Shown one piece after another: positions 1 to 56,517 of a DNA stretch of 56,517 nucleotides. Under the pieces are notes generated by a model. That model was not told the origin of the DNA and ran no database searches. It saw only the letters and a program-made list of their open reading frames with translations. Position 1 is the first letter of the stretch; each line of letters begins with the position of its first letter. Source of the stretch: a virus. The stretch lies in the IMG/VR virus record IMGVR_UViG_3300033150_002389; one strand, written 5' to 3'. Position numbers and translations under genes: made by a program.

Positions 1-70
1 TTCGCAATCTCGTATCGCCCGAATCTCCCCGTCTTGCACTTCGGAGATCCGGGCCGGAAGTCCCCCACGC
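1..70. repeat. terminal direct repeat; bases 1-70 are identical to 56448-56517 (circular or terminally redundant genome, unique length about 56447 bp)
   Basis: exact 70-nt identity between window start and window end, read directly. Confidence 0.9.
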
Positions 71-2687: not shown

Positions 2688-2939
2688 ATGCGGATAAAAG
2701 ACTATTTAGAGAAATATAAACTTAGTCAAGCAGGCTTTGCAAAACAGCTATCGATTTCGAAATCTGCTGTTAGCCTCATCCTGCGTGGTGCCCGTCGCCC
2801 CTCTCCTGAGCTTGCCCTTAAGATCCAGGAAGCCACCAATGGCGAGGTGACGGTCATGGAATTACTTTTTCCTGCTCTTGATGAACATGTAGATGAGCAG
2901 AAAGGGGACACCAATAAAAAAAGTGCCGAATGCCCATAA
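2688..2939 (+). CDS. XRE-family HTH regulator (Cro-like)
   Basis: YKLSQAGFAKQLSISKSAVSLILRG is a classic HTH_3-type motif; first gene of the plus-strand block, divergent from the repressor candidate. Confidence 0.6.
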   Translation: MRIKDYLEKYKLSQAGFAKQLSISKSAVSLILRGARRPSPELALKIQEATNGEVTVMELLFPALDEHVDEQKGDTNKKSAECP

Positions 2940-3269
2940 CTCGGAGTCCTCAAGAATCATCAGGGCGTAAAAAGCCCACAGGGCCAATAAAACGCAGGTA
3001 ATAATGGTGACGCGGTTTTCTCTCCATCTTTCAGGCGTTAACGCTGTCATAGCTTTGCTGATGAGAAGTATTGAACCACAACCCAGGAGCCAAACGCCAA
3101 AAACGTATACGGGTATAGAAATCAATGGCCTGAGGGGCAACTGGCGAGAATATACAATGTAGTAGAGGAGGCTGAGGTCTTTTGGTCCCCTTGAAAGGAT
3201 CGTCGCTGACCAGACCAAACTCCAGCAGGCAACAAGGCAAAGATTCAGGTGCGATTTTGTCTCGGACAT
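2862..3269 (-). CDS. integral membrane protein (about four hydrophobic helices)
   Basis: ATG at 3269 with AGGAGG 7 nt upstream; hydrophobic segments throughout. Confidence 0.5.
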   Translation of the reverse strand: MSETKSHLNLCLVACWSLVWSATILSRGPKDLSLLYYIVYSRQLPLRPLISIPVYVFGVWLLGCGSILLISKAMTALTPERWRENRVTIITCVLLALWAFYALMILEDSELWAFGTFFIGVPFLLIYMFIKSRKK

Positions 3270-3310
3270 GGCCATGCCTCCTATTCGGTCATCTATGAAC
3301 GGCATAACAA

Positions 3311-3604
3311 TCATGCGGGGGATTCCTCTGGGGCGAACCCGGGTTGGTTACGGAGGTTCACCGCTTCAAGCACTGCAACAACGAATGAGTGATCTAGAAG
3401 GACACGTCGCGGCTCTCCGCTGGGAGGCTTCGAAACCGTTGCCGAGAAGTAGGTCCCTCCTTCGTGGATTTCAGTGCAGGTCATGTAGTAAACGGGATTG
3501 CCCCTTTCGTCTGTGGCCTTTTCAGCCAGATCACTTGCAAGGTACGGATACCGGGCGATGCGTTCATCAAGAATAACCGTGTATATCTTGAGCTTGTGGC
3601 TCAT
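3311..3604 (-). CDS. hypothetical protein
   Basis: ORF track; AAGGAGGA upstream of ATG at 3604. Confidence 0.5.
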   Translation of the reverse strand: MSHKLKIYTVILDERIARYPYLASDLAEKATDERGNPVYYMTCTEIHEGGTYFSATVSKPPSGEPRRVLLDHSFVVAVLEAVNLRNQPGFAPEESPA

Positions 3605-4402: not shown

Positions 4403-4723
4403 TCAGCGCCCATAATTACGGTAGCCTGAACCACGCCTCGAACCAGGGAGTCCTAATAAGCTATCATTATATGGGCTCGGGTTTGATGGGAATAGCCTTC
4501 TTGGGTTGTTTGAGTAGGGCGTTACCCGCCCGGTATTCGGGTTGTAGTTCCCTGGGTATGAGTAGTTATTCATCCGAGTTGAGTCAGGGGTAGTCCGCCA
4601 ATGCCCTTGAACATAGGTTCCGTCGCTACGGTAATAGCCTCTGACCCAGGTTTGGCCTGCTCCAGCATACAATGGCCAGAACAGAACAAAAAGTAAAGCA
4701 GCAAAAACAATAAGCTTTTTCAT
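4403..4723 (-). CDS. small secreted Tyr/Asn/Pro-rich protein with signal peptide
   Basis: N-terminal MKKLIVFAALLFVLFWPLYAGAG is signal-peptide-like. Confidence 0.5.
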   Translation of the reverse strand: MKKLIVFAALLFVLFWPLYAGAGQTWVRGYYRSDGTYVQGHWRTTPDSTRMNNYSYPGNYNPNTGRVTPYSNNPRRLFPSNPSPYNDSLLGLPGSRRGSGYRNYGR

Positions 4724-9225: not shown

Positions 9226-10980
9226 ATGGAAAATGCGATAAGAAAACCGAGCAACCTTGAGTACGCAAGGCAGGCCTCCGAGTATCTGCCTTTTGCATCG
9301 TATAGCGGTGCACTCCGGATCTACAGGGAGATGCTCAACGACCCTCATCTCGACGAGCAAGTCCTGGCGATAGTAGGTCTGTATGACCGCTTTTTCCTCA
9401 TCACGCAAGTGCTGCGCTTGCAGTCAGTCATAAATCGCACGTGGCGCCCCGAGTGGCTGTACGAGCGGTGCAGGGAAGTTGAAGCTAATCCCGACGGGCA
9501 CCTGGACTTATGGGCACGGGAGCATTTCAAGACGAGTATCATGACCTTCGCAGGTGCAATCCAGGAAATAGCCAAGGACAGCCCGCTTTACCAGGTCTTC
9601 GACCCACCCGACGCCTACTTCCGGGGTCCAGGGCAAGAGATAACCATCGGCATCTTCAGCCACAATACAAAGATAGCGCGCGACTTCGTGGTGCGCGTGA
9701 AGCGCGAACTGGAAAACAATCCGCTCCTCCCGAGATTCTACCCCACGGTGTTCTGGGATCAGCCCAGGAAGCAAGCCCCGGTCTGGTCGAGAGACGACGG
9801 GCTCATCTGCAAGAGAGTTTCCAACCCGAACGAGGCAACCCTTTCCGGCTGGGGCCTAGTTGACGGCCTTCCCACCTCAAAGCACTTCAAACTCATGATC
9901 TATGACGACGTCGTCACGGAGAAATCGGTGACGACACCCGATATGATCCTCAAGACGACAGAGGCGTGGGAGCTCTCCGACTTCCTGTCGTCCCGTATAG
10001 ACGAGAAGACTCCGCCCAGAAAGTGGTACGTGGGAACGAGGTACAATTTTGCCGATACCTATGGGGTTATGTTGGAGAGGGAAGCTGCAACGCCCCGCAT
10101 TTACCCTGCGACCGATAGCGGGACCCCCGATGGGGCGCCGGTGCTGCTGAGCCCGAAGGAGTGGGAGAAGAAAAAGCGAGACAGCTCGCCACGGACGATC
10201 GCCTGCCAGATGCTCCTCAACCCACTGGCCGGCGAAGAACAGGAACTCAAGCCTGAGTGGATCCGCAGGTGGGAAATCAGGCCTGAAACCCTCAACGTGG
10301 CAATCTGTGTTGACCCGGCGTCCTCGAAGAAGAAAGAGTCTTGCAACTCCGCTTTTGCGGTCATTGGCATTGACGCAGCCTGGAACAAGTATCTGCTGGA
10401 TGGTGCGTGTCACAAGATGGATCTGGCAGCCAGATGGAGGATGCTCAAGTATCTGCGGAACAAGTGGATCAAGCAGCCAGGGGTCCAGACCGTCATGGTA
10501 GCCTATGAAAAGTACGGCATGCAGTCCGACATTGAACACTATGAGCAAATGATGCAAATCGAAAAGGCGGCATTTCCGATCACTGAAGTCTCATGGCCCC
10601 GCGATCGGACCCAGGGCGCAAAGGACGACAGGATTCGCCGCCTCATTCCCGACCACCAGAACTGGAAGTTCTTCTACCCCGAAGTGGAGTATGACCGGGT
10701 TGCAGATCAGTTTAATTTCAAGCCCCGGGCGACCAAGCTCCAGGCCGATGCCATCAAAAGAGGGAAGCCCTATCTTGTAGCAACCAGGATCATGCGTAAG
10801 GACGAGAACGGCGAGCTTTACAACGTGGTTGAGCGCGTCATCAAAAACGAGTATCTGTTTTTTCCCGCAACCACATGGAAAGACTTCCTGGACGCTATGA
10901 GCAGGATTTATGACCTGGATATGCGGCCGCCCCAGGTGGTGAGGGAGCAAGACACTTTACCGGAACCAGAGACCGATTAG
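9226..10980 (+). CDS. terL: terminase large subunit
   Basis: 584 aa; ATPase-like N-terminus and RNase-H-like nuclease motif VAICVDPASS...AFAVIGID; gene order terS-terL-portal. Confidence 0.75.
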   Translation: MENAIRKPSNLEYARQASEYLPFASYSGALRIYREMLNDPHLDEQVLAIVGLYDRFFLITQVLRLQSVINRTWRPEWLYERCREVEANPDGHLDLWAREHFKTSIMTFAGAIQEIAKDSPLYQVFDPPDAYFRGPGQEITIGIFSHNTKIARDFVVRVKRELENNPLLPRFYPTVFWDQPRKQAPVWSRDDGLICKRVSNPNEATLSGWGLVDGLPTSKHFKLMIYDDVVTEKSVTTPDMILKTTEAWELSDFLSSRIDEKTPPRKWYVGTRYNFADTYGVMLEREAATPRIYPATDSGTPDGAPVLLSPKEWEKKKRDSSPRTIACQMLLNPLAGEEQELKPEWIRRWEIRPETLNVAICVDPASSKKKESCNSAFAVIGIDAAWNKYLLDGACHKMDLAARWRMLKYLRNKWIKQPGVQTVMVAYEKYGMQSDIEHYEQMMQIEKAAFPITEVSWPRDRTQGAKDDRIRRLIPDHQNWKFFYPEVEYDRVADQFNFKPRATKLQADAIKRGKPYLVATRIMRKDENGELYNVVERVIKNEYLFFPATTWKDFLDAMSRIYDLDMRPPQVVREQDTLPEPETD

Positions 10981-11000
10981 GCTGGAAGGAGTGCGAGATA

Positions 11001-11294
11001 ATGGCAAAGAAGGGGACATTGTTTGGTAGGCCTCGGGAGGAGGTAATCAAGCGTCCCGGGGCGTTCAGCGCAAAGGCAAAACGTGCCCACATGAGCACGA
11101 GTGAGTATGCAGATAAAGTGCTCAAGAAAGGGAATCGTGCCAGCGCAGAGACGCGAAAACAGGCAGGCTTGGCCAAGGCCTTCGAGACAATGAGGGAGAA
11201 AAAGCTCGCAAAAAAGTCAACCAAGTCAAGCCCGTCGGCCACGGATCGGGATATCGCCCAAGGATACAAGAAAGTGCCTTGGCCAGCGGACTAG
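11001..11294 (+). CDS. hypothetical basic protein
   Basis: ORF track. Confidence 0.4.
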   Translation: MAKKGTLFGRPREEVIKRPGAFSAKAKRAHMSTSEYADKVLKKGNRASAETRKQAGLAKAFETMREKKLAKKSTKSSPSATDRDIAQGYKKVPWPAD

Positions 11295-11453
11295 GGGGCA
11301 CACATGACGACGACATCAGACAAATCCTGGCTTTCTGAGGTTCTTGAGGCGGACCCGGAGCACAACGAGCCCGAGGACGTTTACGAGTTCAGCAACGGCC
11401 GTAAGCTCAAGAGTACCGACAAGACGGACCATGGGATATATGATGGGAGTTAG

Positions 11454-11879
11454 TTGGTGGAATCAAGGAAGCTAACAAGAAGGGGGTTCCTGAAGGTTTC
11501 GGCTGTCGCTATCGGTGCGGGTTCTTTACCCCTGGAGACCATAGAGGCCATTGCCCGGTCAGTTGAAGAAGCCTTCAAAAATGACAAGTTTAATCCAGGC
11601 CATGAATATGGCTCTTTGTTATACACGCCTTGGAACGGTGACAAAACAAAAGAATTAAATAAAACCGTTATTATACAACACCTTCTCCAAAACCTACGAA
11701 AACATGTGCCAGCCAAGTATCTACGCAAAGTTCAAATCAGGAGGAGCATTTCAGATTATTATAGGCCCTCTTCGATAGCTTGGTATTATGCACCTTGGAA
11801 TAAACCAGGATACCTTGGCCTACATGGCAAGTGGGAATATCAGACCAAGGAAGGCGTCTATCTTTGGGTTAAGGCCTAA
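11454..11879 (+). CDS. Tat-signal secreted protein (moron candidate)
   Basis: N-terminal SRKLTRRGFLKVSAVAIGAGS is a twin-arginine motif plus hydrophobic core; body of the gene is AT-rich. Confidence 0.5.
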   Translation: MVESRKLTRRGFLKVSAVAIGAGSLPLETIEAIARSVEEAFKNDKFNPGHEYGSLLYTPWNGDKTKELNKTVIIQHLLQNLRKHVPAKYLRKVQIRRSISDYYRPSSIAWYYAPWNKPGYLGLHGKWEYQTKEGVYLWVKA

Positions 11880-11889
11880 ACTGGGGGAG

Positions 11890-12090
11890 ATGGCCTTTGA
11901 CTTCGAAAAATGGCTCGCTGGTCCAGAGAGAGAGGAGACACGGTTCCAGCACGACCCGCGCTACGACGCACTGCCAGAATCGATCAAGTTCATGTACAGC
12001 CCCGAAGAGTACGCTTGGCTAAGCGACGAGGAGAAGGCACACATTGTCGAAAGAGAATGTATGCCCGACCCGGATGAATTTGGAGGATAA
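11890..12090 (+). CDS. hypothetical protein
   Basis: internal ATG of ORF 11788-12090 after GGGGGAG. Confidence 0.3.
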   Translation: MAFDFEKWLAGPEREETRFQHDPRYDALPESIKFMYSPEEYAWLSDEEKAHIVERECMPDPDEFGG

Positions 12091-12094
12091 AAGC

Positions 12095-12640
12095 ATGAGA
12101 AAAAGTTTTAGGCTGTTTTTGGTCCTTGCCAGCATGCTCCTGCTAGCATGGGCGGGGGCTGGGTGTGTGACGACTAGCGAACAGCCCGCCCCAACTTCCC
12201 AATCTTTCGAGGGATCTCGTTTCCACTACGGCACCATACAGTTTATTCAGCGGACAGTATCAAACGGCATTCTGCGCAAAGGGATTACCGAAAAAACCAT
12301 TCTGCTGCCGGAAGGGGTGCCTGACTTTACTTCCTTTGGTCCTGGCGTAGATCAATATCCCGATGACATAGTTCACCAAATTATGTATCCAACAAAGCCG
12401 GGAGCCAAGTTCAGCAATTATAGCCACTACGCCTTCTTTGCATGGTTCCACCAAGGTGAATTTATCCCCATCGGAATTTATTACACGGACATAGGCGCAG
12501 ATCCAGGCGAAATGTGCTGGATCTATCAACGCAATGTTCCAGGGGAAGCCAGCCCTGAAGACATGCAGGCTCTTGTGAGTTATTACGCTGAGCGCGAAAA
12601 GGCAGTCAAGCAAGATCAGGCGAGTAAACACGGCTTATGA
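12095..12640 (+). CDS. putative lipoprotein
   Basis: GGAGG 8 nt upstream; MRKSFRLFLVLASMLLLAWAGAGC signal peptide with lipobox-like Cys. Confidence 0.5.
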   Translation: MRKSFRLFLVLASMLLLAWAGAGCVTTSEQPAPTSQSFEGSRFHYGTIQFIQRTVSNGILRKGITEKTILLPEGVPDFTSFGPGVDQYPDDIVHQIMYPTKPGAKFSNYSHYAFFAWFHQGEFIPIGIYYTDIGADPGEMCWIYQRNVPGEASPEDMQALVSYYAEREKAVKQDQASKHGL

Positions 12641-12808
12641 CCGCGATCCCCGACAAGACCCTCTGCACAAACAACGAGTGCTGGATCAGGCACGACTGCC
12701 TGAGGTACACCTCCGAGCCACAGAAAGGCTATCGTTATGCATACTTCGTGCCTCGTCGCGTTTTAGGGGCCACCCTTGATTGCAAGCACAAGATCCAGGA
12801 GACGAACA

Positions 12809-13315
12809 ATGGGTAACGTCATCATTGACCCCACAACAAAGAGTACCACCTCAATCAGGGCACGCAAGGACGGCAACGTCTACTCCGTTGATAAGCGAAG
12901 CACGCAGAATGCCATGGCCAAATTCGGCATTATTGTGAAGCCCAAAGAGGAGATAGGAATCGAAGTCAACCCCTACGCACCGGACGGAAACGCGGACTTG
13001 GCCGCCAGGGCGATGAAAGTCCTCGTCGATCACTACCCGGGCTACACATGGATCGTGGAGGTGGACGATAGGCCCAGTGTCGCATGCCTGAATGTCTATA
13101 ACCAGGACGTGAACGCAGCGCTTTTCTCCGGGGCGCCCTACGGCTACAGGATTTTCCTCAGCACGGCCTATGACGACCCGAACCTGAAATGCGTCATGCG
13201 GGCCGGCGGCGAAATCTTGGAGAGGGCGCGTCTTGTGCGAGGGCGAAATCGGGGTGAAGCCCCTATTGCAGTTGACGGGGTTCTCAATAAGCACCAGCCA
13301 CGGAGAGTGAACTGA
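12809..13315 (+). CDS. hypothetical protein
   Basis: AGGAG upstream of internal ATG of ORF 12776-13315; stop overlaps portal start. Confidence 0.45.
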   Translation: MGNVIIDPTTKSTTSIRARKDGNVYSVDKRSTQNAMAKFGIIVKPKEEIGIEVNPYAPDGNADLAARAMKVLVDHYPGYTWIVEVDDRPSVACLNVYNQDVNAALFSGAPYGYRIFLSTAYDDPNLKCVMRAGGEILERARLVRGRNRGEAPIAVDGVLNKHQPRRVN

Positions 13316-15360
13316 TGTTAGAAGCGCAAGCGCACGTATTGCAAGCAAGGGACGACGAGCGGGTGTGGGTGCAGATTGCTCAAGACGCCTACCAAAAGTC
13401 GACGACCTATGTTGACAATAATTACCGAAAACAGTGGGAAAACAATTATCGGCACTTCATGAGCCGGCACCACGCTGGCTCAAAATACTACAAGGCGTCC
13501 TACCTCTACCGCTCGAGGATCTTCCGACCGAAAACCCGTTCTGCTATCCGCAACAATGAGGCGGCTGCCGTTGCAGCGTTCTTCTCAAACCAGGATGTGG
13601 TCTCGATACAAAGCCAGAACACGAATGACCCGATGCAAAGAGCAAGCGCAGACATCGTGGAGGCACTTCTCCAATACAGGTTGACGAAAACTATTCCCTG
13701 GTTTTTGATTTGCATCGGCGCATATCAGGACTCGATGGTTCCCGGAGTGGTCTGTAGCTACCAGAGCTGGGAGTACGAAGAAGCTGAGAGGGTTGACCGA
13801 GTAGCCCTTGTTGACGCTGATAGAAACCCCGTACTGGATGGGGACGGTAAGCCTCAATATACAACTATCAAAGAAAAAAAGGTGATCAAGGACCAACCAG
13901 CAATCAGGCTCATACCCGTGGAAAATTTGCGCATAGACCCCGCAGCTGACTGGACGGACCCTATCAATTCGAGCCCCTACGTAATTGAGCTGATGCCGAT
14001 GTATATCATGGACGTGAAGTTCAGAATGAACGCCTCGGACCCGAAGACAGGCCAGCCCAAATGGCGCGAATTGCCTGACGAGGTCCTGAAGACAGCAAGA
14101 AGCCAAAGGTTTGACATTACCCGCCAGGCCCGTGAGGGGCAGCGGACGGACAGGATGGAGCCACAGGCGTCCAGCAAAGAGCTGGCCCTCTATGACATTG
14201 TGTGGGTCCATCGCAATATCATCAAAATTAAGCACCAGGATTGGGTCTATTACACGCTCGGCACGGAACATCTTCTCTCCGACCCCAAACCTCTGGAGCA
14301 GGTCTATTTCCATGGCGAGAGGCCCTACGTAATGGGCATCTCCGTGATCGAGGCCCACAAAATATATCCAAGCGGGTTGGGTCAGCTGGGAGAAGGTATT
14401 CAGAAGGAGATAAACGAAAACGCCAATCAAAGGCTTGACAATGTAAAGCTCGTGCTAAACAAGCGCTACTTCGTGAAAAGGGGATCCCAGGTGGACCTCA
14501 AGTCCCTCGTGCGAAACGCCGCAGGGTCAATCACGATGGTCAATGATATCAATGGCGACGTAAAGGAGATGGAGTTCAATGATGTAACCCGATCCTCGTA
14601 CCAGGAACAGGATCGGCTGAACGTTGATTTCGACGAAGTGGTGGGCAACTTCTCAGTGTCCACCATCCAGACCAACCGCCGGCTCAATGAGACCGTCGGC
14701 GGAATGAACCTGCTCAAGGGCAACACAAATGCTCTGACCGAATATGCGCTGCGCACATTTTCAGAGACGTGGGTTGAGCCTGTTATGCGACAGCTCGTTA
14801 AGCTCGAACAGAAGTATGAAACGGACACCACCATTTTGGCCATTGCCGCGGAAAAGGCCAACATCTTCCAGAAGTACGGCATTGACGAGGTGACCGACGA
14901 GTTGCTCAATCAGGAGCTAACGACGACCGTGAACGTTGGCATGGGCGCAACTGACCCCCTGATGCGGCTGCGGAACTTTACCTTTGGGCTTAGAATCATC
15001 CTTGAGGTGGTGACAAAGACGCCGCCCGGGTCGCTCAACGTTATGGAGGTAGCGAAAGAAGTATTTGGCTATCTGGGTTTCAAGGACGGGGAGAGATTTT
15101 TTGTCGAGCAGATGGGAGACGATCCAGAGAAGATGCAGATGGGCATGATTATTCAGCAGTTGCAGCTGGCAATCCAACGACTCCAGGAGCAGCTTGATTC
15201 CAAGATGGTTGACAATGAGACGAAGCTTATAGCTGCGAAGATGAAAGAGCAGGGTGAAGACAGACGCAAGCTTGCCGACATCCGAGCAAAGCTCGAAATG
15301 AAAGCCATGGACCTGCTGAACCCGGTCGTTGGCGAGACGGTGCCCGCGAATGCTCACTGA
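13315..15360 (+). CDS. portal protein (putative)
   Basis: 681 aa, position after terminase and before scaffold and capsid. Confidence 0.6.
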   Translation: MLEAQAHVLQARDDERVWVQIAQDAYQKSTTYVDNNYRKQWENNYRHFMSRHHAGSKYYKASYLYRSRIFRPKTRSAIRNNEAAAVAAFFSNQDVVSIQSQNTNDPMQRASADIVEALLQYRLTKTIPWFLICIGAYQDSMVPGVVCSYQSWEYEEAERVDRVALVDADRNPVLDGDGKPQYTTIKEKKVIKDQPAIRLIPVENLRIDPAADWTDPINSSPYVIELMPMYIMDVKFRMNASDPKTGQPKWRELPDEVLKTARSQRFDITRQAREGQRTDRMEPQASSKELALYDIVWVHRNIIKIKHQDWVYYTLGTEHLLSDPKPLEQVYFHGERPYVMGISVIEAHKIYPSGLGQLGEGIQKEINENANQRLDNVKLVLNKRYFVKRGSQVDLKSLVRNAAGSITMVNDINGDVKEMEFNDVTRSSYQEQDRLNVDFDEVVGNFSVSTIQTNRRLNETVGGMNLLKGNTNALTEYALRTFSETWVEPVMRQLVKLEQKYETDTTILAIAAEKANIFQKYGIDEVTDELLNQELTTTVNVGMGATDPLMRLRNFTFGLRIILEVVTKTPPGSLNVMEVAKEVFGYLGFKDGERFFVEQMGDDPEKMQMGMIIQQLQLAIQRLQEQLDSKMVDNETKLIAAKMKEQGEDRRKLADIRAKLEMKAMDLLNPVVGETVPANAH

Positions 15361-18074: not shown

Positions 18075-18467
18075 ATGCCAAGTTTCTACGACGACGCACA
18101 ATACGGCGTGAGGGAGAGGCTTTATCTCACCGCACACCAGGCGGAGAAGACGCTGGCCGGGGATAAAACTCTCGTGAAGAGGTTCTACCCCAAGGGTCCG
18201 ATCAAGATCTTGAAGTTTGGGATCCAGCACATCGCGACCCAGGGCGGTACCGAGGTAACAGTTAACCTCAAAAGGAATTCGTCAACGCTGGCTACAGTTG
18301 TTGCCTCCACGGATTCAGCACCGTGGACCATAGCCAGCAAGTCGCTCGACAAGAACTGCGACGCGGGCTCCTATCTCACCGTGGACAGCGCAGGTACCGT
18401 TGCGACAGGATCTATAATCTGTTTCATCGAGTACAGGCGGCGCTACAGCACTAAGTGGGACGTCTAG
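18075..18467 (+). CDS. 130-aa virion-associated protein, paralog 1 (decoration-protein candidate)
   Basis: GGGGGTGAGG SD; about 85 percent aa identity to the next gene. Confidence 0.55.
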   Translation: MPSFYDDAQYGVRERLYLTAHQAEKTLAGDKTLVKRFYPKGPIKILKFGIQHIATQGGTEVTVNLKRNSSTLATVVASTDSAPWTIASKSLDKNCDAGSYLTVDSAGTVATGSIICFIEYRRRYSTKWDV

Positions 18468-18539: not shown

Positions 18540-18932
18540 ATGCCCTCATTTTATAGTGATGCACAGTATGGCGTTGTTGAGCGCCTTCACTTCCATGCCT
18601 ATCAGGATTCGGTCCTCATAAACGGTGACAACACCCTGGTGAAGAGGTTCTATCCCAAAGGCCCAATCAAGATTTTGAAATTCGGGATCCAGCACCGGGC
18701 AACGCAAGGTGGCACCGAGGTCACGGTCAACTTAAAGCGCAACTCTTCAACGCTCGCAACGGTAGTGGCTTCGACGGACTCGGCGCCCTGGACCATTGCG
18801 AGTAAGTCCATTGACAAGAATGTGGACGCAGGGAGCTATTTGACCATCGACAGCGCCGGTACCGTTGCCAGCGGAAGCATAATTTGCTTCATTGATTACA
18901 GGCGCAGATACAGCTCGAAGTGGGATACCTGA
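18540..18932 (+). CDS. 130-aa virion-associated protein, paralog 2
   Basis: tandem paralog; protein conserved while synonymous sites have diverged. Confidence 0.55.
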   Translation: MPSFYSDAQYGVVERLHFHAYQDSVLINGDNTLVKRFYPKGPIKILKFGIQHRATQGGTEVTVNLKRNSSTLATVVASTDSAPWTIASKSIDKNVDAGSYLTIDSAGTVASGSIICFIDYRRRYSSKWDT

Positions 18933-27503: not shown

Positions 27504-27814
27504 TGGACGCCCAGTCAATTGCAAATGTGTGCGGAGGGCTACTATTGGGAGGTTATGCAGCTTTGCGAGTAATAAATTTCTTTCGGTCGAGGTCGAGTAG
27601 TTCAGGCGCCAATTCAAGGCAGAACACCGCTAACCGCGCTCACTGCCCTGAGGACAGCTGCAAGGCGACGGTCATCAGCACAGCAGAGAGGGTCAGGACC
27701 CACGATGACCAAATCTCGAAGCTCTTTGAAACAACAAAGAAGATCTCAGAAGATGTAGCCTTTATGAGGGGCAAATTGAGCGGCGCGAAAATAGTTCGCT
27801 TCCAAGAGGAGTGA
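27503..27814 (+). CDS. small membrane-anchored protein (holin or spanin candidate)
   Basis: TGATG stop/start overlap; N-terminal hydrophobic helix IANVCGGLLLGGYAALRVINFF. Confidence 0.3.
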   Translation: MDAQSIANVCGGLLLGGYAALRVINFFRSRSSSSGANSRQNTANRAHCPEDSCKATVISTAERVRTHDDQISKLFETTKKISEDVAFMRGKLSGAKIVRFQEE

Positions 27815-28437
27815 CAGCAGTGAATGCTGAAAGCCACGACATCCTCAATGGCACCATGACAATTTATCGCACTTTGAAGGCCTACCGGAGGCAGAGGGCG
27901 ATTGAGGATCAGGATTGGGCTCTCATTCTGGCGTCCCTCAAGCGGATAGAGGGGGCATGTAAAACGTGCTACCGGAATGACTCTGCGAGCAAGGTAATCG
28001 CTTTGCGTCGGGTAGCCCTGCGGGTCGCTTGGAGCTTCCTTGGACGACCATACATTTGGGGCGGTGACGACCCATTGCAGGGATTTGACTGTTCTGGTTT
28101 CGTCATTGAATGTTTGAAATCCGCGGGTGTCCTTCCGCGCGTGGGTGATTGGACAGCGCAGGGGCTCTGGGATCGATTTGAGGATTGCAAAGTCCAGGAC
28201 GTCGAACCAGGCTGCCTCGTATTTTGGAAAAATGAAAAGGGCAGAGTAACCCATGTGGAAATCTGCATCGGCAACGGCCTCACCATCGGATCTAGCGGTG
28301 GCGGAAGTCACACGCTCACGGGTGCGGACGCCATCAAACAGAACGCGTACATCAAGGTACGCCCGATCCGCGATAGCCATAGCCTGAAGGGTTACCTGGA
28401 CCCGTTTCTGAAAGCAAAGGAAGGGGGTTTCAAATGA
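27811..28437 (+). CDS. NlpC/P60-family peptidoglycan endopeptidase
   Basis: GFDCSGFVIECL catalytic Cys motif and downstream VTHVEI His. Confidence 0.6.
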   Translation: MTAVNAESHDILNGTMTIYRTLKAYRRQRAIEDQDWALILASLKRIEGACKTCYRNDSASKVIALRRVALRVAWSFLGRPYIWGGDDPLQGFDCSGFVIECLKSAGVLPRVGDWTAQGLWDRFEDCKVQDVEPGCLVFWKNEKGRVTHVEICIGNGLTIGSSGGGSHTLTGADAIKQNAYIKVRPIRDSHSLKGYLDPFLKAKEGGFK

Positions 28438-29030
28438 CACCATTGATAGCGGCAGGGCTCTCACTCCTGCCCAAGCTGCCAGAGATATGGAGCTCAGTCG
28501 CGAGCCTGTTCGGCAAGAAAGCCCCCGATTCAGTGGAGGAGGCGGGGAAGCTCGCGGGAGACATCTTGGGGGCTATCTCCAAGGGCGCTGTTCCCATAGA
28601 GCGGCAGATACAGCTGAAGACAATCATGTATCAGCACGAGGAGAAGATCAGGGAATACACGCTCAAAGAGAGGGAGCTCGATTACCAGCACGAGCAGAAA
28701 AAATGGGAGACCTATGCCCAGATTGAGGCCCAAGATGCGGCAAGCACCAATAAATTTCGAGCGGAGACCCGACCGAAGATACTGAGAGACCTGTTCAAGC
28801 TCACAGCTGGATACGTGCTTTTTGCCCCACTCGCCCTCCTAGCCGCTAACGTGGCTGGGATGGCGGCGATCGCCGAATTTGCGGGCTTCTTGAAATGGAT
28901 AGGTGGGTTTCTTTTTTCCACCTTTGGTTCCGCATATCTCGGCTACTCGGTCGTGAGGTCCGCGTGGGACAAGAAAGGTGAGAACAGGCCGGATAACCCC
29001 TTGATGAACGCAATCTCCAAACTCATCTAA
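28434..29030 (+). CDS. membrane protein (ejection or lysis candidate)
   Basis: C-terminal hydrophobic helices. Confidence 0.4.
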   Translation: MTPLIAAGLSLLPKLPEIWSSVASLFGKKAPDSVEEAGKLAGDILGAISKGAVPIERQIQLKTIMYQHEEKIREYTLKERELDYQHEQKKWETYAQIEAQDAASTNKFRAETRPKILRDLFKLTAGYVLFAPLALLAANVAGMAAIAEFAGFLKWIGGFLFSTFGSAYLGYSVVRSAWDKKGENRPDNPLMNAISKLI

Positions 29031-29060: not shown

Positions 29061-29702
29061 ATGTTAGGTGCAATTTTAGGAGTAGCTGCGGCCACATTGG
29101 GCGGAGCCTTAATCAGCTCCGGTGGGGCATCTAAGGCTGCCAGTACGGCGGCTGCCGCCACAGACCGCGCCGCAGAAGTACAACGCGAAATGTTTTACAC
29201 CAGCAGGGAGGACCTGGCTCCCTGGCGCGAAGCCGGGAAACGAGCCCTGAGTGCTCTCGAAGGAAGAATTGAGGCTGGCCCGGGTGAATTTGTGCCGGAG
29301 GAGGAACCCGGATTCAAGTTCGGCTACAGGGAGTTCGTCGAAAAGCCGCTTATGAGGCGAGCCTCGGCGCGAGGCGGTGTTGATAGTGGCAGGACCCTCA
29401 AGGAGCTCACTCGTTACGCAGAAGACTACGCCTCCACTCGGTACGACAATTTCCTCAACCGCTGGTACAAAAGCCTTACCCCATATCAGAGCCTTGCTGG
29501 TGTCGGTCAGACATCGGCTGCTCAAATGGGCGAGAACGCTCTAGTCGCTGGCGGGAACATTGGAAACGCCCTGATCACAGGCGGCCAGGCAAGGGCTTCC
29601 GGCTACGCTAATCAAGCCAATATCTGGGGAGGAACCGCAGCTGGCATAGGGCAAAACCTTCTTGATTACGCGATTCTAAAGAAAGCGGGAATACTAAATT
29701 GA
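29061..29702 (+). CDS. internal virion protein (putative)
   Basis: Gly/Ala-rich; position. Confidence 0.4.
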   Translation: MLGAILGVAAATLGGALISSGGASKAASTAAAATDRAAEVQREMFYTSREDLAPWREAGKRALSALEGRIEAGPGEFVPEEEPGFKFGYREFVEKPLMRRASARGGVDSGRTLKELTRYAEDYASTRYDNFLNRWYKSLTPYQSLAGVGQTSAAQMGENALVAGGNIGNALITGGQARASGYANQANIWGGTAAGIGQNLLDYAILKKAGILN

Positions 29703-29709
29703 CGGGGGA

Positions 29710-31242
29710 ATGAAAATGGCTAATTTTTTAGTGAATCCGCCGCCTGTCCCCTCAATAGGCAAGTCAATGCAAAACGCTTTAAGCCTGAAATACCTCCAGA
29801 CGAGGCAGGCATTGGCGGAGCGAGATTTGAGGGACGTAGGCAGAGCAGAGGAATACGAGAAGGCGAAACGAAGTCTGGATGCCTTTAACGCTTACATTGA
29901 CACCTATGAGAAAACCGGGAACAAGGACCTTGCTGACAAGGCCTTCAAGGCTTTGGAGCCAGATTCAGACCCTCCAGCTGAAACGTGGCGTATAGATAAA
30001 AACGACCGCCACTACACCTTTGCTGATGGCACCGAGGTAATTGGGGACCCCCAAGACGTCAAGACCGTGATGGAGGAACTCAGGCAGTATTTGCCCCAAA
30101 TTCACCAGAACCCGGAATACCAAGCCAGATTCTTTGATTTCGCAGCTGCACATAATGTCGGTATCAAGTTCGGTAAAGCTGGGGAAATTGAGCCCTTATA
30201 CGACACGGCTGAGCGGAGGGTTTATAACCTTCCCAAGGCGGAGGCTCGGGCGAAGAAAGCAGAAGATCCGGTGCGGTACCAGACCTATGATGAACGAATT
30301 GGAAAGAGGAAGAAGTGGGAGCCCTCCACCAAGGAAGAGTTGCTTGACCTTGAGGAAGCCAAGCAGAGAATCAGGGCAAAATACGAGCAGCCTGGATTGA
30401 CCCCGGCGCAAAAGAGCAGGCTGAACTTGCTCGAAGAGAAGGCAAAAGCAGAGATTGAAATAATACAGGCGTACCGCATGGGAGAAAAGGATCTTCAGGG
30501 CAACCCTGTTGTGCCTCCAGAACAGGCAGCGGCCGCAACTCGACGCCTCGAAGAAACCATGAAACAGATAGACCAAATCCGCGGCCAAAGACCAACCAAC
30601 GCTTTAGCTCAACCTACAGGAATAGCCCCTCGTGGAGCGCCTATAACGCCATCAGCATTACCGGAGGCTCCAAGAGCAACGGCACCTGCGGCGCCGACCC
30701 AACCGACTGCTGGCTCATTGTTTTCCAAGCTTGTCGCTATCCATGCCGAGCTACTCAAACAGGGCGTTGACCCTATGAGTCTTCCCAAGGTTCGGGCTGC
30801 AACAGAAGCTTACTTCAAGCAGAACCCGGAAGCGCAAGAGCGTTTTAGGGATGCCCTTAATGCCCAGCAGATTGAGGGTCCCCCTCCGGTTTCGCCAGAA
30901 GTCAACGCCATACGCCAGGAACTGCGCAAGGAGGCAACCCAGAACCTGACAATTGCTGAGGCGGCAAAAGAGATTGGGAAACGGCTTGTATCGGGCATGA
31001 GTCCCGAGCGCGCTGGCGCAGTAGCGGCAGAGTACCTCCCACTTTTACCGGAAGATGAAAAGGTGGTGGACTTCGACTCATTCAAGAAGTTCTTCAAGAA
31101 GGTGCGGAAGGCGGATAAGTGGACTGAGCAATACCTCCGGGAGGCCTTCAAGACCTATTGGAAAGGCTTGAATTGGGCTGGCAATGCCCTCTTGGGCATA
31201 AGGATTCCTGGAACAGCCGGACTCAGAAGCGAGGAGAAGTAA
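29710..31242 (+). CDS. internal virion / ejection protein (putative)
   Basis: 510 aa; position before the giant protein. Confidence 0.4.
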   Translation: MKMANFLVNPPPVPSIGKSMQNALSLKYLQTRQALAERDLRDVGRAEEYEKAKRSLDAFNAYIDTYEKTGNKDLADKAFKALEPDSDPPAETWRIDKNDRHYTFADGTEVIGDPQDVKTVMEELRQYLPQIHQNPEYQARFFDFAAAHNVGIKFGKAGEIEPLYDTAERRVYNLPKAEARAKKAEDPVRYQTYDERIGKRKKWEPSTKEELLDLEEAKQRIRAKYEQPGLTPAQKSRLNLLEEKAKAEIEIIQAYRMGEKDLQGNPVVPPEQAAAATRRLEETMKQIDQIRGQRPTNALAQPTGIAPRGAPITPSALPEAPRATAPAAPTQPTAGSLFSKLVAIHAELLKQGVDPMSLPKVRAATEAYFKQNPEAQERFRDALNAQQIEGPPPVSPEVNAIRQELRKEATQNLTIAEAAKEIGKRLVSGMSPERAGAVAAEYLPLLPEDEKVVDFDSFKKFFKKVRKADKWTEQYLREAFKTYWKGLNWAGNALLGIRIPGTAGLRSEEK

Positions 31243-31244
31243 AA

Positions 31245-43175: not shown

Positions 43176-44396
43176 TTAGTTATCGCTTTCGGAGTGCCTA
43201 AATTTCTTTGCCACTTTTTTGCCACCCCTAGCATCGGAATAGATGGCCCTGAGGTCGTCTCCTTCCTCCCAGTAGTAGCGGTCAAATGCCTTGGTAGTGC
43301 TCCTCATCGAGCCATAGCGGATCTCCTCCGGGGTGCGGTATTTTCTGAGAGCCCTGGTGGTTGAGTGGGTAGTGCCCCCGTAGAGGTCCACTCCCTGGAT
43401 TCCGAGCTTGGCACAGGCCCGCTTCCACCACTTGTAAAAATGTTTCTCGCCGAATTGCCTCCCATTCTTATGGCGGAAGAAATAGGCGTCAGGATCTATG
43501 CAAGGGGGTAGGGCCCCCAAGATCTCCACGTCTTCGTCAATGAGATACACGATTTTGGACCTATTCTCCTTGGGGTGCCGTATCAGGATCTCTCTTGCCT
43601 TCAGGTTGATGTCCCCTTCCCGGATATTGCGCCATTCCTCGGGCCGCACGTTAAAGTAGGTGGTCATCCATTTGATGCCCAGCCAGGTCTTGTAGGGGGC
43701 CCACCCCTTCAGCGTATCCAAGATACCGAATTGGTCTGCCTTCGTAACAGTCTTTCGCCGGCGAAGCTCAAACTGGACCTTCGGGAACTTGGGCATTACC
43801 GAGATCTCATCATTATCGTAAAGCCACTTGAAGAACTGCTTAAGTGTCTGAATATAATTGAATTTGCTCTTATTGCTGACGTTATACTGGGTGAGAAAAA
43901 ACTGGAAGTCTTTCAGGCGCAGGCGTTTTACGCTGACAGGGCCAAAAACTCGAATCGCCTTCCAAATATGGTCTTCAAGGGCCCGATAGGTGTTTGGGCT
44001 GATGCCGTCCGGCCTGATCTCCGCCTCTCGGAGGCGGAGCCACTCATTGGCTAGATTTTCAAACCCAAGGGGATTATCAGCCCGATATTCCCTGGGGTCG
44101 AACGTTCCCTCATCCTCCTTGAACCTGAGGCCAGTGAGGCATTTTTGAGCGGCCTCGTAGCTCCTGAAACGCCGTGTGACCCCCCTGAAGTAGATCCGAA
44201 ACCGCCTGCTGGCCCTTTGCTCTGGATGGTTCGGGCAGAAGAGTCCCCTCCGACCATCATCTTTAAACCTGCCCCCGCATAAGGGGCACTTTTCATCAGA
44301 ATAGATTCCCCCTTTCATGCAATCGCCCCCAACCCCAGATTTGGCTGATACGGGGCCGATCTTACGTTGGTAAGGGGTAGATGTCAAGGAGGCCAT
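43176..44396 (-). CDS. int: tyrosine recombinase / phage integrase
   Basis: C-terminal HSTTRAL (HxxR) and AFDRYY catalytic Tyr region; adjacent to tRNA-like att sequence. Confidence 0.7.
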   Translation of the reverse strand: MASLTSTPYQRKIGPVSAKSGVGGDCMKGGIYSDEKCPLCGGRFKDDGRRGLFCPNHPEQRASRRFRIYFRGVTRRFRSYEAAQKCLTGLRFKEDEGTFDPREYRADNPLGFENLANEWLRLREAEIRPDGISPNTYRALEDHIWKAIRVFGPVSVKRLRLKDFQFFLTQYNVSNKSKFNYIQTLKQFFKWLYDNDEISVMPKFPKVQFELRRRKTVTKADQFGILDTLKGWAPYKTWLGIKWMTTYFNVRPEEWRNIREGDINLKAREILIRHPKENRSKIVYLIDEDVEILGALPPCIDPDAYFFRHKNGRQFGEKHFYKWWKRACAKLGIQGVDLYGGTTHSTTRALRKYRTPEEIRYGSMRSTTKAFDRYYWEEGDDLRAIYSDARGGKKVAKKFRHSESDN

Positions 44397-56413: not shown

Positions 56414-56517
56414 TTACTTGCCCCCCTTCTTAACCGGGAACTCATACTTCGCAATCTCGTATCGCCCGAATCTCCCCGTCTTGCACTTCGGAGATCCGGG
56501 CCGGAAGTCCCCCACGC
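56414..56517 (-). CDS. C-terminal end of the junction-spanning hypothetical gene (stop TAA at 56416-56414)
   Basis: frame continues from window position 1 through 56447 and reads ...RYEIAKYEFPVKKGGK-stop. Confidence 0.5.
   Translation of the reverse strand, partial: VGDFRPGSPKCKTGRFGRYEIAKYEFPVKKGGK
56448..56517. repeat. terminal direct repeat, second copy (identical to 1-70)
   Basis: exact identity. Confidence 0.9.

What the first reader, a model, noticed from the sequence alone, without database searches (positions are those of the whole stretch)
11454..12640. Exported-protein moron between terminase and portal: Tat-signal protein plus lipoprotein
A protein with an RRGFLK twin-arginine signal and a protein with a lipobox signal peptide are inserted between terL and the portal gene. 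Part of the segment is AT-rich. Exported proteins here cannot be virion assembly factors and are more likely lysogenic-conversion or superinfection-exclusion functions. The Tat signal also implies a host with a Tat pathway.
Basis: partly seen in the sequence, partly recalled or inferred. Interest (0 to 1): 0.5.

Follow-up and report, generated by a model that had tools for sequence, protein, structure and literature searches.

The report
Two exported-protein cargo genes in phage
A complete temperate phage genome carries two separately inserted accessory genes between its terminase and portal genes. One encodes a protein with a twin-arginine export signal and no known relatives. The other encodes a lipoprotein from a rare phage family that elsewhere sits inside lysis gene clusters. 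This is an ordinary kind of phage cargo whose function is still unknown.

Summary
ORF 11454-11879 begins with TRRGFLK, a 13-residue uncharged stretch and AIA. It passes NCBIfam's Tat-signal cutoff and just misses Pfam's. ORF 12095-12640 begins with a lipoprotein signal (lipobox GAGC). GC falls to 0.39 inside the first gene.

It is not one moron. Among 97 loci with a related portal, terL-g49-g66-g168-portal is the conserved order. The Tat gene sits between g49 and g66. The lipoprotein gene and a small Cys-rich gene sit between g66 and g168. None has a match in any related locus, and the closest relative (portal 76% identical) has no insertion.

Both genes have low GC3. Neither has its own promoter or terminator signal, and both are packed against late genes.

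The Tat protein has no detectable homologue. The lipoprotein has five relatives among 1.84 billion representative proteins. All five keep the lipobox cysteine. In at least two of their five contexts the gene directly follows an M15 endolysin gene; a third (L098) is adjacent to a holin-like gene. None has a second membrane segment or an adjacent i-spanin, so they are not canonical spanins.

Best reading: envelope-targeted accessory genes expressed late. The lipoprotein is probably lysis-associated; superinfection exclusion remains a live rival. Interest is modest.

The parts
9226..10980 (+). terL, large terminase subunit (left anchor of the interval)
   Evidence: phrog_38 7.2e-29. Found by tblastn in 61 related loci.
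11001..11294 (+). g97, small basic accessory protein, not in relatives
   Evidence: phrog_20603 3.5e-12. No tblastn hit in 97 related loci. Called identically by the source pipeline.
11304..11453 (+). g49, conserved core small gene of the terL-portal block
   Evidence: tblastn hits in 29 related loci. The C-terminus ...YDGS is conserved.
11454..11879 (+). Tat141, ORFan with an N-terminal twin-arginine signal. Predicted mature protein is residues 35-141, pI 9.75, no Cys, 10 Tyr and 5 Trp.
   Evidence: TIGR01409 scores 19.9 against a cutoff of 16.7. The codon log-likelihood is positive only in this frame, and GC3 is 0.447. There are no homologues anywhere.
11454..11555 (+). Predicted Tat signal peptide (residues 1-34). 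RR codons are at 11478-11483, the h-region is VSAVAIGAGSLPL, and AIA is at residues 32-34.
   Evidence: Sequence. It aligns with the Tat signal region (residues 5-34) of the Desulfovibrio [FeFe]-hydrogenase small subunit 1hfe_S: TRRGFLKV is identical and AxA falls at the same position.
11890..12090 (+). g66, conserved core small gene that separates the two insertions
   Evidence: tblastn hits in 42 related loci. It is 62% identical in the closest relative L018.
12095..12640 (+). Lpp181, predicted lipoprotein and member of a six-member phage family
   Evidence: P0001 is the identical source call. The family is P0004, P0005, P0006, P0008 and P0009, with E from 7e-42 to 1.5e-6. The lipobox Cys is invariant. 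GC3 is 0.519.
12095..12166 (+). Lipoprotein signal peptide and lipobox GAGC. The Cys24 codon is 12164-12166, and the +2 residue is Val.
   Evidence: Sequence. The family profile hits only the lipoprotein signals of CsgG and FlgP in the PDB.
12637..12816 (+). g59, small Cys-rich accessory protein. Its start overlaps the Lpp181 stop (ATGA).
   Evidence: phrog_20586 9e-4. No hit in related loci. Called identically by the source pipeline.
12809..13315 (+). g168, conserved core gene immediately upstream of portal
   Evidence: tblastn hits in 81 related loci.
13315..15360 (+). Portal protein (right anchor of the interval)
   Evidence: PF23899 SU10_portal 1.9e-31.
27811..29030 (+). Context: an NlpC/P60 peptidoglycan hydrolase (27811-28437) and a holin-like membrane protein (28434-29030). 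The homologue of the latter lies directly next to the Lpp181 homologue in L098.
   Evidence: PF00877 6.5e-13. phrog_3427 5.4e-5 and phrog_1544 3.5e-6. 58% identity to L098 3157-3741.
43176..44396 (-). Context: tyrosine integrase, so the phage is temperate
   Evidence: phrog_1 6e-19. PF00589 scores 23 bits, below its cutoff.

Best explanation
The segment is two independent accessory-gene insertions in a complete, roughly 56.4-kb temperate phage genome. They sit at two hypervariable gene junctions of an otherwise conserved block: terL-g49-g66-g168-portal.

Shown:
- The insertions exist.
- Their composition is foreign to the surrounding genes.
- They are packed tightly against late genes.
- The lipoprotein belongs to a small family, and that family lives in lysis gene clusters.

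Inferred for Tat141:
- It is made with the late packaging and head genes.
- It folds in the cytoplasm and is exported by the host Tat translocon.
- Its signal is cut after AIA (residue 34), releasing a basic, aromatic-rich protein of about 12.8 kDa into the periplasm.

Inferred for Lpp181:
[quoted passage not shown] This sorting follows from the E. coli rule for lipoproteins without Asp at +2.
- Because its relatives are translationally coupled to lysis-cluster genes (in L099 to the endolysin gene itself), it most likely acts at the peptidoglycan or outer-membrane step of late infection. It would be an accessory lysis factor, not a canonical spanin.

My split for Lpp181 is about 45% lysis-associated, about 25-30% exclusion or anti-readsorption, and the rest other roles.

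The periplasmic target of Tat141 cannot be named from sequence.
For: Synteny:
- g49, g66 and g168 are found in 29, 42 and 81 of 97 portal-related loci. Tat141, Lpp181, g97 and g59 are found in none at E <= 0.1.
- The closest relative L018 has g49, 45 nt, g66, then g168 directly, then portal.
- The terL-to-portal distance has a median of 833 nt in 61 loci and is 2334 nt here.

Composition: GC3 is 0.447 and 0.519 against 0.55-0.72 for 18 of the 19 late-region genes scored; the beta-helix gene (0.393) is itself an outlier.

Signals:
- TIGR01409 is above its cutoff.
- The Tat signal resembles that of HydB in sequence, length and AxA position.
- The lipobox Cys is invariant in six family members.
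- The family profile hits the lipoprotein signals of CsgG and FlgP.

Late co-expression:
- Intergenic gaps are 0, 10 and 4 nt, plus an ATGA overlap.
- Promoter-like and terminator-like sites are at chance level.

Lysis-cluster residence of the family:
- L099: M15 endolysin (phrog_1768, 1.3e-7), then Lpp with a 4-nt overlap, then a 2-TM protein.
- L103: a TM protein, then M15 endolysin (phrog_894, 1e-5), then Lpp.
- L098: Lpp is adjacent to a holin-like protein that is 58% identical to window 28434-29030.

No other lipobox ORF that looks like a separate gene was found in the window; the one other match is an internal TTG start inside the 2862-3314(-) membrane-protein ORF.
Against: Against Tat141:
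- It has no homologue.
- The source pipeline did not call it.
- Its codon score (0.126) is reached by 4 of 57 spurious ORFs.
- Pfam's Tat model is just below threshold.
- Its c-region is acidic rather than basic.

Against a lysis role for Lpp181:
- In this window the gene is 15 kb from the hydrolase and holin-like genes.
- No family member was found anywhere in IMG/VR, which holds the full contigs of relatives L001-L007. It is therefore dispensable for this phage lineage.
- No member has a C-terminal TMD or an adjacent i-spanin.
- Three of the five homologue contexts are contigs under 2 kb.

Other limits:
- The promoter scan covers only a sigma-70 consensus, and the host is unknown.
- No structure could be obtained: pLDDT was 40 and 46.
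Confidence: 0.5

Rival explanations
1. This is the first reader's idea: classical morons giving lysogenic conversion or superinfection exclusion. Both proteins would be expressed from the prophage, or early in infection. They would alter or occupy envelope components, so that other phages or the phage's own progeny cannot adsorb or inject. Known examples are the outer-membrane lipoproteins T5 Llp and phi80 Cor, which block a receptor.
For: - The phage is temperate.
- Both genes are insertions relative to relatives and have deviant GC.
- Both products go to the envelope.
- In L098 and L099 the Lpp gene lies 2-4 genes downstream of a tailspike or tail-fibre gene, as llp and cor lie near receptor-binding genes.
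- The gene is patchy and absent from relatives, as cargo usually is.
- Other exported or surface-modifying cargo occurs in the same interval in relatives. L024 has a hexapeptide acetyltransferase plus a second Tat-signal ORF. L008 and L010 have proteins bearing signal peptides.
- There is a noise-level PHROG hit to Cor (E 0.065).
Against: - No own promoter or terminator was detected.
- In all six contexts the Lpp gene is packed against or overlaps neighbouring late or lysis genes.
- There is no significant similarity to Llp, Cor or any PADLOC or PHROG exclusion family.
- The mature protein (158 aa) is much larger than Llp or Cor.
Confidence: 0.27
2. Tat141 is not a functional exported protein. 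Either the ORF is not a real gene and the region is a decaying or non-coding insert, or the N-terminus resembles a Tat signal without being used as one.
For: - There is no homologue in 5.8 billion clustered proteins, the related loci, IMG/VR, INPHARED or PLSDB.
- The source pipeline did not call it.
- It starts at TTG or GTG.
- Its codon score is weak.
- Pfam TAT_signal is below its gathering score.
- The AF2 model has pLDDT 40.
Against: - The ORF exactly fills the g49-g66 gap in a tightly packed operon and is preceded by GGGAG.
- An open run this long appears in only 13 of 5000 shuffles.
- It is the only frame with a positive codon score.
- A full n/h/c Tat signal with AxA sits at the very N-terminus and passes TIGR01409.
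- The strict pattern is found in only 4 of 4737 ORFs.
Confidence: 0.15
3. Lpp181 is a canonical spanin component. It would be either an o-spanin that pairs with an i-spanin, or a unimolecular spanin. In that case it would be an essential outer-membrane disruption protein rather than cargo.
For: - It has a lipoprotein signal.
- Two family members occupy the post-endolysin position usually held by spanins, and a third lies beside a holin-like gene.
- The predicted periplasmic domain is beta-rich, as described for T1 gp11 (low confidence; PMC6139136).
- No other lipobox ORF that looks like a separate gene was found in the window.
- There is a noise-level PHROG hit to an Rz-like spanin (E 0.093).
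Against: - No member has a C-terminal TMD. The maximum 19-residue hydropathy outside the signal is at most 1.42.
- No type-II membrane, coiled-coil i-spanin gene is adjacent or overlapping in the window, L098, L099 or L103.
- The family is absent from IMG/VR, which holds the full contigs of relatives L001-L007.
- In the window the gene is 15 kb from the hydrolase and holin-like genes.
Confidence: 0.05
4. The two proteins are virion or assembly components, and the signal-like N-termini serve another purpose.
For: They lie inside the packaging and head operon and are co-oriented with it.
Against: - They are absent from every related phage that has the same terL, portal, scaffold and capsid genes.
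- The family members elsewhere lie in lysis gene clusters, not head modules.
- Lipidation or Tat export would remove them from the cytoplasm where heads assemble. This follows from established knowledge of these pathways.
Confidence: 0.03

Closest known systems
Phage morons (HK97 gp15, lambda bor and lom), as defined by Juhala et al. 2000 and reviewed in PMC3594210
   Same: - They are extra genes between genes that are adjacent in related phages.
- Their GC content differs from that of their neighbours.
- Their products go to the cell envelope.
- The phage is temperate.
   Different: - No own promoter or terminator was detected, and the genes are packed against late genes with 0-10 nt gaps or overlaps.
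- There are two separate insertions flanking a core gene, not one element.
- There is no sequence similarity to any named moron product.
Receptor-blocking outer-membrane lipoproteins T5 Llp and phi80/N15/T1 Cor (PHROG 1119)
   Same: - They are phage-encoded lipoproteins of diderm hosts.
- Their distribution is patchy, like cargo.
- Family members in L098 and L099 lie a few genes downstream of a tail-fibre or tailspike gene.
   Different: - There is no significant sequence match (best E 0.065, which is noise level).
- The mature protein is about 130-160 aa, against about 60-80 aa.
- The genes sit inside lysis gene clusters or a head operon, not next to a receptor-binding gene.
- Function has not been tested.
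Spanins: o-spanin Rz1 and unimolecular spanin T1 gp11 (Kongari et al. 2018, PMC6139136)
   Same: - It has an outer-membrane lipoprotein signal.
- Two family members directly follow the endolysin gene in lysis gene clusters.
- The predicted periplasmic domain is beta-rich, as for gp11.
   Different: - It has no C-terminal transmembrane domain, which is required for a u-spanin.
- No i-spanin gene is adjacent or overlapping.
- It is not short, proline-rich or unstructured like Rz1.
- It is dispensable in related phages.
Tat signal peptide of the periplasmic [FeFe]-hydrogenase small subunit of Desulfovibrio (PDB 1hfe chain S)
   Same: - TRRGFLKV is identical.
- The signal is about 34 residues in both.
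- An A-x-A motif sits at residues 32-34 in both.
   Different: - Only the signal aligns.
- The mature parts are not significantly similar.
- Pfam does not detect an Fe-hydrogenase small-subunit domain.

Membership tests
Moron (independent transcription unit added to a phage genome) | Present between genes that are adjacent in related phages | tested here: met
   There are 0 hits in 97 related loci. L018 has g49-g66-g168-portal with no insert.
Moron (independent transcription unit added to a phage genome) | Nucleotide composition differs from surrounding genes | tested here: met
   GC is 0.444 and 0.497, and GC3 is 0.447 and 0.519. Neighbours have GC 0.52-0.57, and 18 of the 19 late-region genes scored have GC3 0.55-0.72.
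Moron (independent transcription unit added to a phage genome) | Own promoter and terminator | tested here: not met
   There are 2 promoter-like and 3 terminator-like sites, against 2.1 and 3.1 expected by chance. There is no intergenic room. Caveat: the scan uses only a sigma-70 consensus and the host is unknown. One weak site at 11416-11444 lies just upstream of Tat141.
Moron (independent transcription unit added to a phage genome) | Expressed from the repressed prophage | not testable with these tools
   This needs a lysogen transcriptome.
Tat (twin-arginine) substrate | S/T-R-R-x-F-L-K motif, followed by a moderately hydrophobic h-region and an A-x-A c-region, at the N-terminus | tested here: met
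   The sequence is TRRGFLK + VSAVAIGAGSLPL + AIA at residues 32-34.
Tat (twin-arginine) substrate | Curated HMM for the Tat signal scores above threshold | tested here: inconclusive
   TIGR01409 scores 19.9 and passes its cutoff of 16.7. PF10518 scores 20.5 and fails its cutoff of 22.7.
Tat (twin-arginine) substrate | Tat-dependent export, and a host with TatABC | not testable with these tools
   The host is unknown. Related prophages are in Proteobacteria and a Syntrophobacter MAG.
Bacterial lipoprotein | Signal peptide ending in a lipobox with an invariant Cys | tested here: met
   The lipobox is GAGC at residues 21-24, which fits the PROSITE PS51257-type rule recalled from memory. Gly at -3 is atypical. 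Cys and the Gly at -1 are invariant in 6 of 6 family members, whose lipoboxes are LGGC, LVGC, ILGC, MMGC and VLGC.
Bacterial lipoprotein | Lgt/LspA processing and acylation | not testable with these tools
   This needs globomycin or labelling experiments.
Unimolecular spanin (T1 gp11 type) | N-terminal lipoprotein signal plus a C-terminal transmembrane domain | tested here: not met
   No hydrophobic segment lies outside the signal in any of the 6 members. The maximum KD over 19 residues is at most 1.42, and the C-termini are charged helices.
Two-component spanin (o-spanin) | Gene embedded in, overlapping or adjacent to an i-spanin gene (N-terminal TMD plus a coiled-coil periplasmic domain) | tested here: not met
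   The upstream genes are g66 in the window, an M15 endolysin in L099 and L103, and a soluble 118-aa protein in L098. Only L107 has an i-spanin-like ORF, and it lies two genes upstream.
Two-component spanin (o-spanin) | Located in the lysis cassette | tested here: inconclusive
   Met for the homologues in L098, L099 and L103. Not met for the window copy, which lies between terL and portal.
Llp/Cor-type superinfection-exclusion lipoproteins | Sequence membership in the family | tested here: not met
   There is no PHROG hit at E <= 0.1 for Lpp181. Two family members hit phrog_1119 only at E >= 0.065. PADLOC gives nothing.
Llp/Cor-type superinfection-exclusion lipoproteins | Blocks the phage receptor or reduces adsorption | not testable with these tools
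   This needs adsorption and efficiency-of-plating assays.

The most novel reading that the evidence does not exclude
The Lpp181 family may be an undescribed class of lysis-cluster outer-membrane lipoprotein. It has six members. It is absent from Pfam, NCBIfam, PADLOC, the PDB and the INPHARED, PLSDB and IMG/VR collections, and it has only noise-level PHROGs hits. It is encoded directly after the endolysin gene (two contexts) or beside a holin-like gene (one), and it lacks both the membrane anchor and the i-spanin partner that define spanins. It could therefore be a new way for phages to handle the outer-membrane or peptidoglycan step of lysis, or to control their endolysin. In this phage the gene has been relocated into the head operon. 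It sits beside an unrelated protein with a Tat signal, and a related phage (L024) carries a second, non-homologous Tat-signal ORF in the same interval. That hints at recurrent use of the host Tat pathway by phage late-operon cargo.
Probability: 0.25. Interest if true: 0.6.

Novelty: new member of a known kind. Interest (0 to 1): 0.33.

Why it matters
The result shows that the terL-portal block of this widespread group of podophage-like phages has two or three defined junctions where cargo accumulates. The cargo includes exported proteins, an acetyltransferase and beta-helix proteins.

It also defines a small, uncharacterised phage lipoprotein family linked to lysis gene clusters. About 15% of phages of Gram-negative hosts lack recognisable spanins (bioRxiv 10.1101/515445, abstract listed). 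A new lysis-linked lipoprotein family is therefore a reasonable candidate to test.

Phage proteins with Tat signals turned up rarely in the literature searches run here. A verified case would show a phage relying on export of a folded protein.

None of this overturns current views. It is a well-delimited lead rather than a surprise.

Tried and rejected
1. DNA similarity of 9226-15360 to cultured phages gave no match.
2. Word-indexed protein searches gave nothing for Tat141 and only the self-hit for Lpp181.
3. Pfam, PHROGs, NCBIfam and PADLOC gave no hit to either mature domain.
4. AF2 without an alignment gave pLDDT 40 and 46. A Foldseek search of BFVD with the Lpp181 model gave only noise, with TM at most 0.23. 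Further fold searches were not run because the models are unreliable.
5. The 178-aa ORF in L001 that occupies the same slot as Tat141 shares the motif IAWYY-P. hhalign gives only 13% probability over 12 columns, so homology was rejected.
6. Homology of Tat141 to the [FeFe]-hydrogenase small subunit was rejected. Only the signal aligns.
7. Tat141 plus Lpp181 as a separated i-spanin/o-spanin pair was rejected. The 13-residue h-region is too short for a stable anchor, and no Lpp family context contains a Tat141 relative.
8. The second lipoproteins in L099 and L106 are not homologous to each other.
9. IMG/VR scans with the Lpp family profile, with Tat141 and with the L024 Tat ORF found nothing. 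tblastn against INPHARED and PLSDB found nothing.
10. The codon-usage score proved a weak discriminator: 4 of 57 spurious ORFs reach Tat141's value.
11. A literature search found no described phage moron with a Tat signal.
Full report
**What is in the sequence**

The window is a complete phage genome. Its first 70 bases are identical to its last 70. It encodes an integrase (43176-44396, minus strand; phrog_1, 6e-19), so the phage is temperate.

terL lies at 9226-10980 and a portal gene of the SU10 type at 13315-15360. Seven co-oriented, tightly packed ORFs lie between them:

| Gene | Coordinates |
|---|---|
| g97 | 11001-11294 |
| g49 | 11304-11453 |
| Tat141 | 11454-11879 |
| g66 | 11890-12090 |
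| Lpp181 | 12095-12640 |
| g59 | 12637-12816 |
| g168 | 12809-13315 |

Gaps between these genes are 0-10 nt or overlaps.

**The Tat signal**

Tat141 starts at TTG 11454 or GTG 11457, 4-7 nt after GGGAG. It reads MVESRKL-TRRGFLK-VSAVAIGAGSLPL-ETIEAIA|RS.

- This is a consensus twin-arginine motif, then a 13-residue uncharged h-region, then A-x-A at residues 32-34.
- NCBIfam TIGR01409 scores 19.9 bits against a cutoff of 16.7.
- Pfam PF10518 scores 20.5 bits against 22.7 and so narrowly fails.
- The best PDB sequence matches are Tat signals. They are the Desulfovibrio [FeFe]-hydrogenase small subunit and NapA. In the hydrogenase subunit, TRRGFLKV is identical and AxA falls at the same residues.
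- Only the signal aligns.
- A strict Tat-like N-terminal pattern occurs in 4 of 4737 six-frame ORFs in 1.02 Mb of related phage sequence.

**Is Tat141 a real gene?**

It has no homologue anywhere I could search. The source pipeline did not call it, although it called g49, g59, g97 and Lpp181 exactly as I do.

In favour:
- The ORF exactly fills the g49-g66 gap.
- An open run of that length arises in 13 of 5000 shuffles.
- It is the only one of six frames with a positive codon score.
- A complete signal sits at its very N-terminus.

Against:
- The codon score alone is weak, because 4 of 57 spurious ORFs reach it.

I put the chance that it is a real, exported protein at about 0.65-0.7.

The predicted mature protein has 107 residues and pI 9.75. 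It has no Cys, 10 Tyr and 5 Trp. It contains an internal repeat, LLYTPWNG and WYYAPWNK.

**The lipoprotein**

Lpp181 starts at ATG 12095, after GGAGGA. It reads MRKSFRLFLVLASMLLLAWAGAGC|VTTSEQ.

The word-indexed search found only the protein itself. An exhaustive HMMER search of 1.84 billion representative proteins with the mature part found five true relatives:

| Protein | E-value | Identity |
|---|---|---|
| P0004 | 7e-42 | 48% |
| P0005 | 1e-23 | 44% |
| P0006 | 4e-11 | 31% |
| P0008 | 9e-10 | 29% |
| P0009 | 1.5e-6 | 26% |

- Three further hits were repeat proteins, which I discard.
- All five true relatives are 153-181 aa and start with a lipoprotein signal. Their lipoboxes are LGGC, LVGC, ILGC, MMGC and VLGC.
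- The Cys and the preceding Gly are invariant in the alignment.
- A family profile hits only the lipoprotein signals of CsgG and FlgP in the PDB.
- The family has no significant match in Pfam or PHROGs and none in IMG/VR, INPHARED or PLSDB. NCBIfam and PADLOC were searched with the window protein only and gave nothing.

This comparative evidence makes the lipoprotein assignment firm, at about 0.9.

**Are they insertions?**

I collected 97 loci by portal similarity from IMG/VR, GTDB genomes and metagenomes.

- tblastn finds g49 in 29 loci, g66 in 42 and g168 in 81.
- Tat141, Lpp181, g97 and g59 are found in none at E <= 0.1.
- In the closest relative, L018 (portal 76% identical), g49 is followed after 45 nt by g66. 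g66 abuts g168, and g168 abuts portal.
- L003 and the cultured Vibrio phage 1.232.O are equally compact.
- The terL-to-portal distance has a median of 833 nt (IQR 706-1180) in 61 loci. It is 2334 nt here.
- GC3 is 0.447 for Tat141 and 0.519 for Lpp181. 18 of the 19 late-region genes scored are at 0.55-0.72; the exception is the beta-helix gene 40308-42875 at 0.393.
- GC falls to 0.39 at 11600-11800.

The genes are therefore genuine additions of foreign composition. They are two separate additions, because the core gene g66 lies between them.

Other relatives carry different cargo at the same junctions:
- L008 and L034 have 700-aa and 571-aa beta-helix-like proteins between g49 and g66.
- L010 has a 302-aa signal-peptide protein before portal.
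- L024 has a hexapeptide acetyltransferase and a second Tat-signal ORF. That ORF reads KTTRRGFLKALAAIVPAVAAG and scores 20.4 bits with TIGR01409. Its mature part is unrelated to Tat141.

**Expression signals**

Promoter-like and terminator-like sites in 10800-13500 are at chance level: 2 against 2.1 expected, and 3 against 3.1. There is no intergenic room for them.

One weak promoter-like site (11416-11444) lies just upstream of Tat141. By the definition in PMC3594210, the insertion and GC criteria of a moron are met. The own-promoter-and-terminator criterion is not.

Co-transcription with late genes is the default inference. The scan covers only a sigma-70 consensus and the host is unknown.

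**Where the Lpp181 family lives elsewhere**

| Locus | Family member | Gene order around it |
|---|---|---|
| L099 | P0005 | tail fibre (790 aa), three small genes (one with a TMD), a 110-aa M15 peptidase endolysin (phrog_1768, 1.3e-7), Lpp (4-nt overlap), a 55-aa two-TMD protein, a second lipoprotein |
| L103 | P0006 | a small TMD protein, a 141-aa M15 endolysin (phrog_894, 1e-5), Lpp |
| L098 | P0004 | a beta-helix tailspike, two small genes, Lpp, a 201-aa holin-like protein, then the repressor region |
| L106, L107 | P0008, P0009 | short contigs, less informative |

- The holin-like protein in L098 matches phrog_3427. It is 58% identical to window 28434-29030.
- In the window that gene is adjacent to an NlpC/P60 hydrolase.

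So in at least three of five independent contexts the gene lies among lysis-type genes. Two of these (L099, L103) are clear lysis gene clusters in which it takes the position after the endolysin, which spanins usually occupy.

The family fails the spanin definitions in PMC6139136:
- No member has a second hydrophobic segment.
- No i-spanin gene is adjacent.

No family member exists in IMG/VR, which holds the full contigs of relatives L001-L007. The gene is therefore dispensable in this lineage.

**Mechanism**

Shown:
- There are two cargo insertions at defined junctions.
- Both have credible Tat and lipoprotein signals.
- Both are packed into a late operon.
- The lipoprotein family is linked to lysis gene clusters.

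Inferred from established knowledge of the Tat, Sec-Lgt-LspA and Lol pathways:
- Tat141 is exported folded to the periplasm and cleaved after Ala34.
- Lpp181 is acylated on Cys24 and sent to the outer membrane, because residue +2 is Val and not Asp.

Function is inferred only by association. I favour a late-acting, accessory, lysis-associated role for Lpp181 (about 45%) over receptor masking or exclusion (about 25-30%). No specific target can be named for Tat141.

It is weakened by the lack of independent transcription signals and by the family's lysis-cluster context.

**Novelty and verdict**

Accessory envelope genes inserted into late operons are a well-known feature of temperate phages. 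New here are:
- the exact junctions where the cargo sits;
- an uncharacterised six-member lipoprotein family tied to endolysin genes;
- two unrelated Tat-signal ORFs in the same interval of two related phages.

I rate this a new member of a known kind, with modest interest (0.33). There is a 0.25 chance that the lipoprotein family is a new kind of lysis factor.

Noticed in passing
window 1-70 and 56448-56517: The first 70 bases are identical to the last 70. The window is a complete circular or terminally redundant phage genome of about 56.4 kb.
   Followed up: partly
window 40308-42875 (+): An 855-aa right-handed beta-helix protein (PF13229, 6e-11) begins with a Sec-type signal, MKSRHLKIVFQALLIIFMLLAHLSWA. 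It has the lowest GC3 of the 19 late-region genes scored (0.393) and lies next to the integrase. It may be a secreted depolymerase-like cargo rather than a tailspike.
   Followed up: partly
L008 4075-6177 and L034 204-1919: In a Syntrophobacter MAG prophage and a metagenome relative, the g49|g66 junction holds 700-aa and 571-aa beta-helix-like proteins. That is the same slot as Tat141. The L008 protein has a signal-like N-terminus. Neither has a Pfam hit.
   Followed up: partly
L024 596-1183 and 1406-1708: A related phage (portal 52% identical) carries two cargo genes between terL and g49. One is a hexapeptide-repeat acetyltransferase (PF00132, 6.6e-19). The other is a second Tat-signal ORF (KTTRRGFLK; TIGR01409 20.4 bits). 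Its mature part is unrelated to Tat141.
   Followed up: partly
window 11304-11879: g49 and Tat141 are in the same reading frame and are separated only by TAG 11451-11453. The g49 C-terminus ...YDGS is conserved in relatives, so this looks coincidental. Readthrough would bury the Tat signal inside a fusion protein.
   Followed up: partly
window 11614-11635 and 11779-11800: Tat141 has an internal repeat, LLYTPWNG and WYYAPWNK, which is also visible as a 22-nt direct DNA repeat. A similar IAWYYIPY motif occurs in the unrelated L001 ORF in the same slot.
   Followed up: partly
window 31158-40205 (+): A single 3015-aa ORF lies downstream of a DNA-ejection protein gene (29061-29702; phrog_598, 7e-33). 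It is probably a giant internal or ejection protein.
   Followed up: no
window 18075-18467 and 18540-18932 (+): Two tandem 130-aa paralogues (MPSFYDDAQYGV... and MPSFYSDAQYGV...) lie just after the major-capsid-like gene.
   Followed up: no
window 4403-4723 (-): A 106-aa protein has a Sec-type signal (MKKLIVFAALLFVLFWPLYAGA) and matches phrog_29674 (1.9e-10). It is another exported accessory protein.
   Followed up: no
window 11890-12090: The source pipeline's protein set contains neither the 66-aa nor the 100-aa form of g66. Yet g66 is conserved in 42 related loci. Gene calls in 11454-12090 therefore differ from mine.
   Followed up: partly
L099 4634-5023 and L106 876-1346: Two of the lysis-cluster contexts of the Lpp181 family also encode a second, unrelated lipoprotein (129 aa and 156 aa) a gene or two downstream. 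The two are not homologous to each other.
   Followed up: partly
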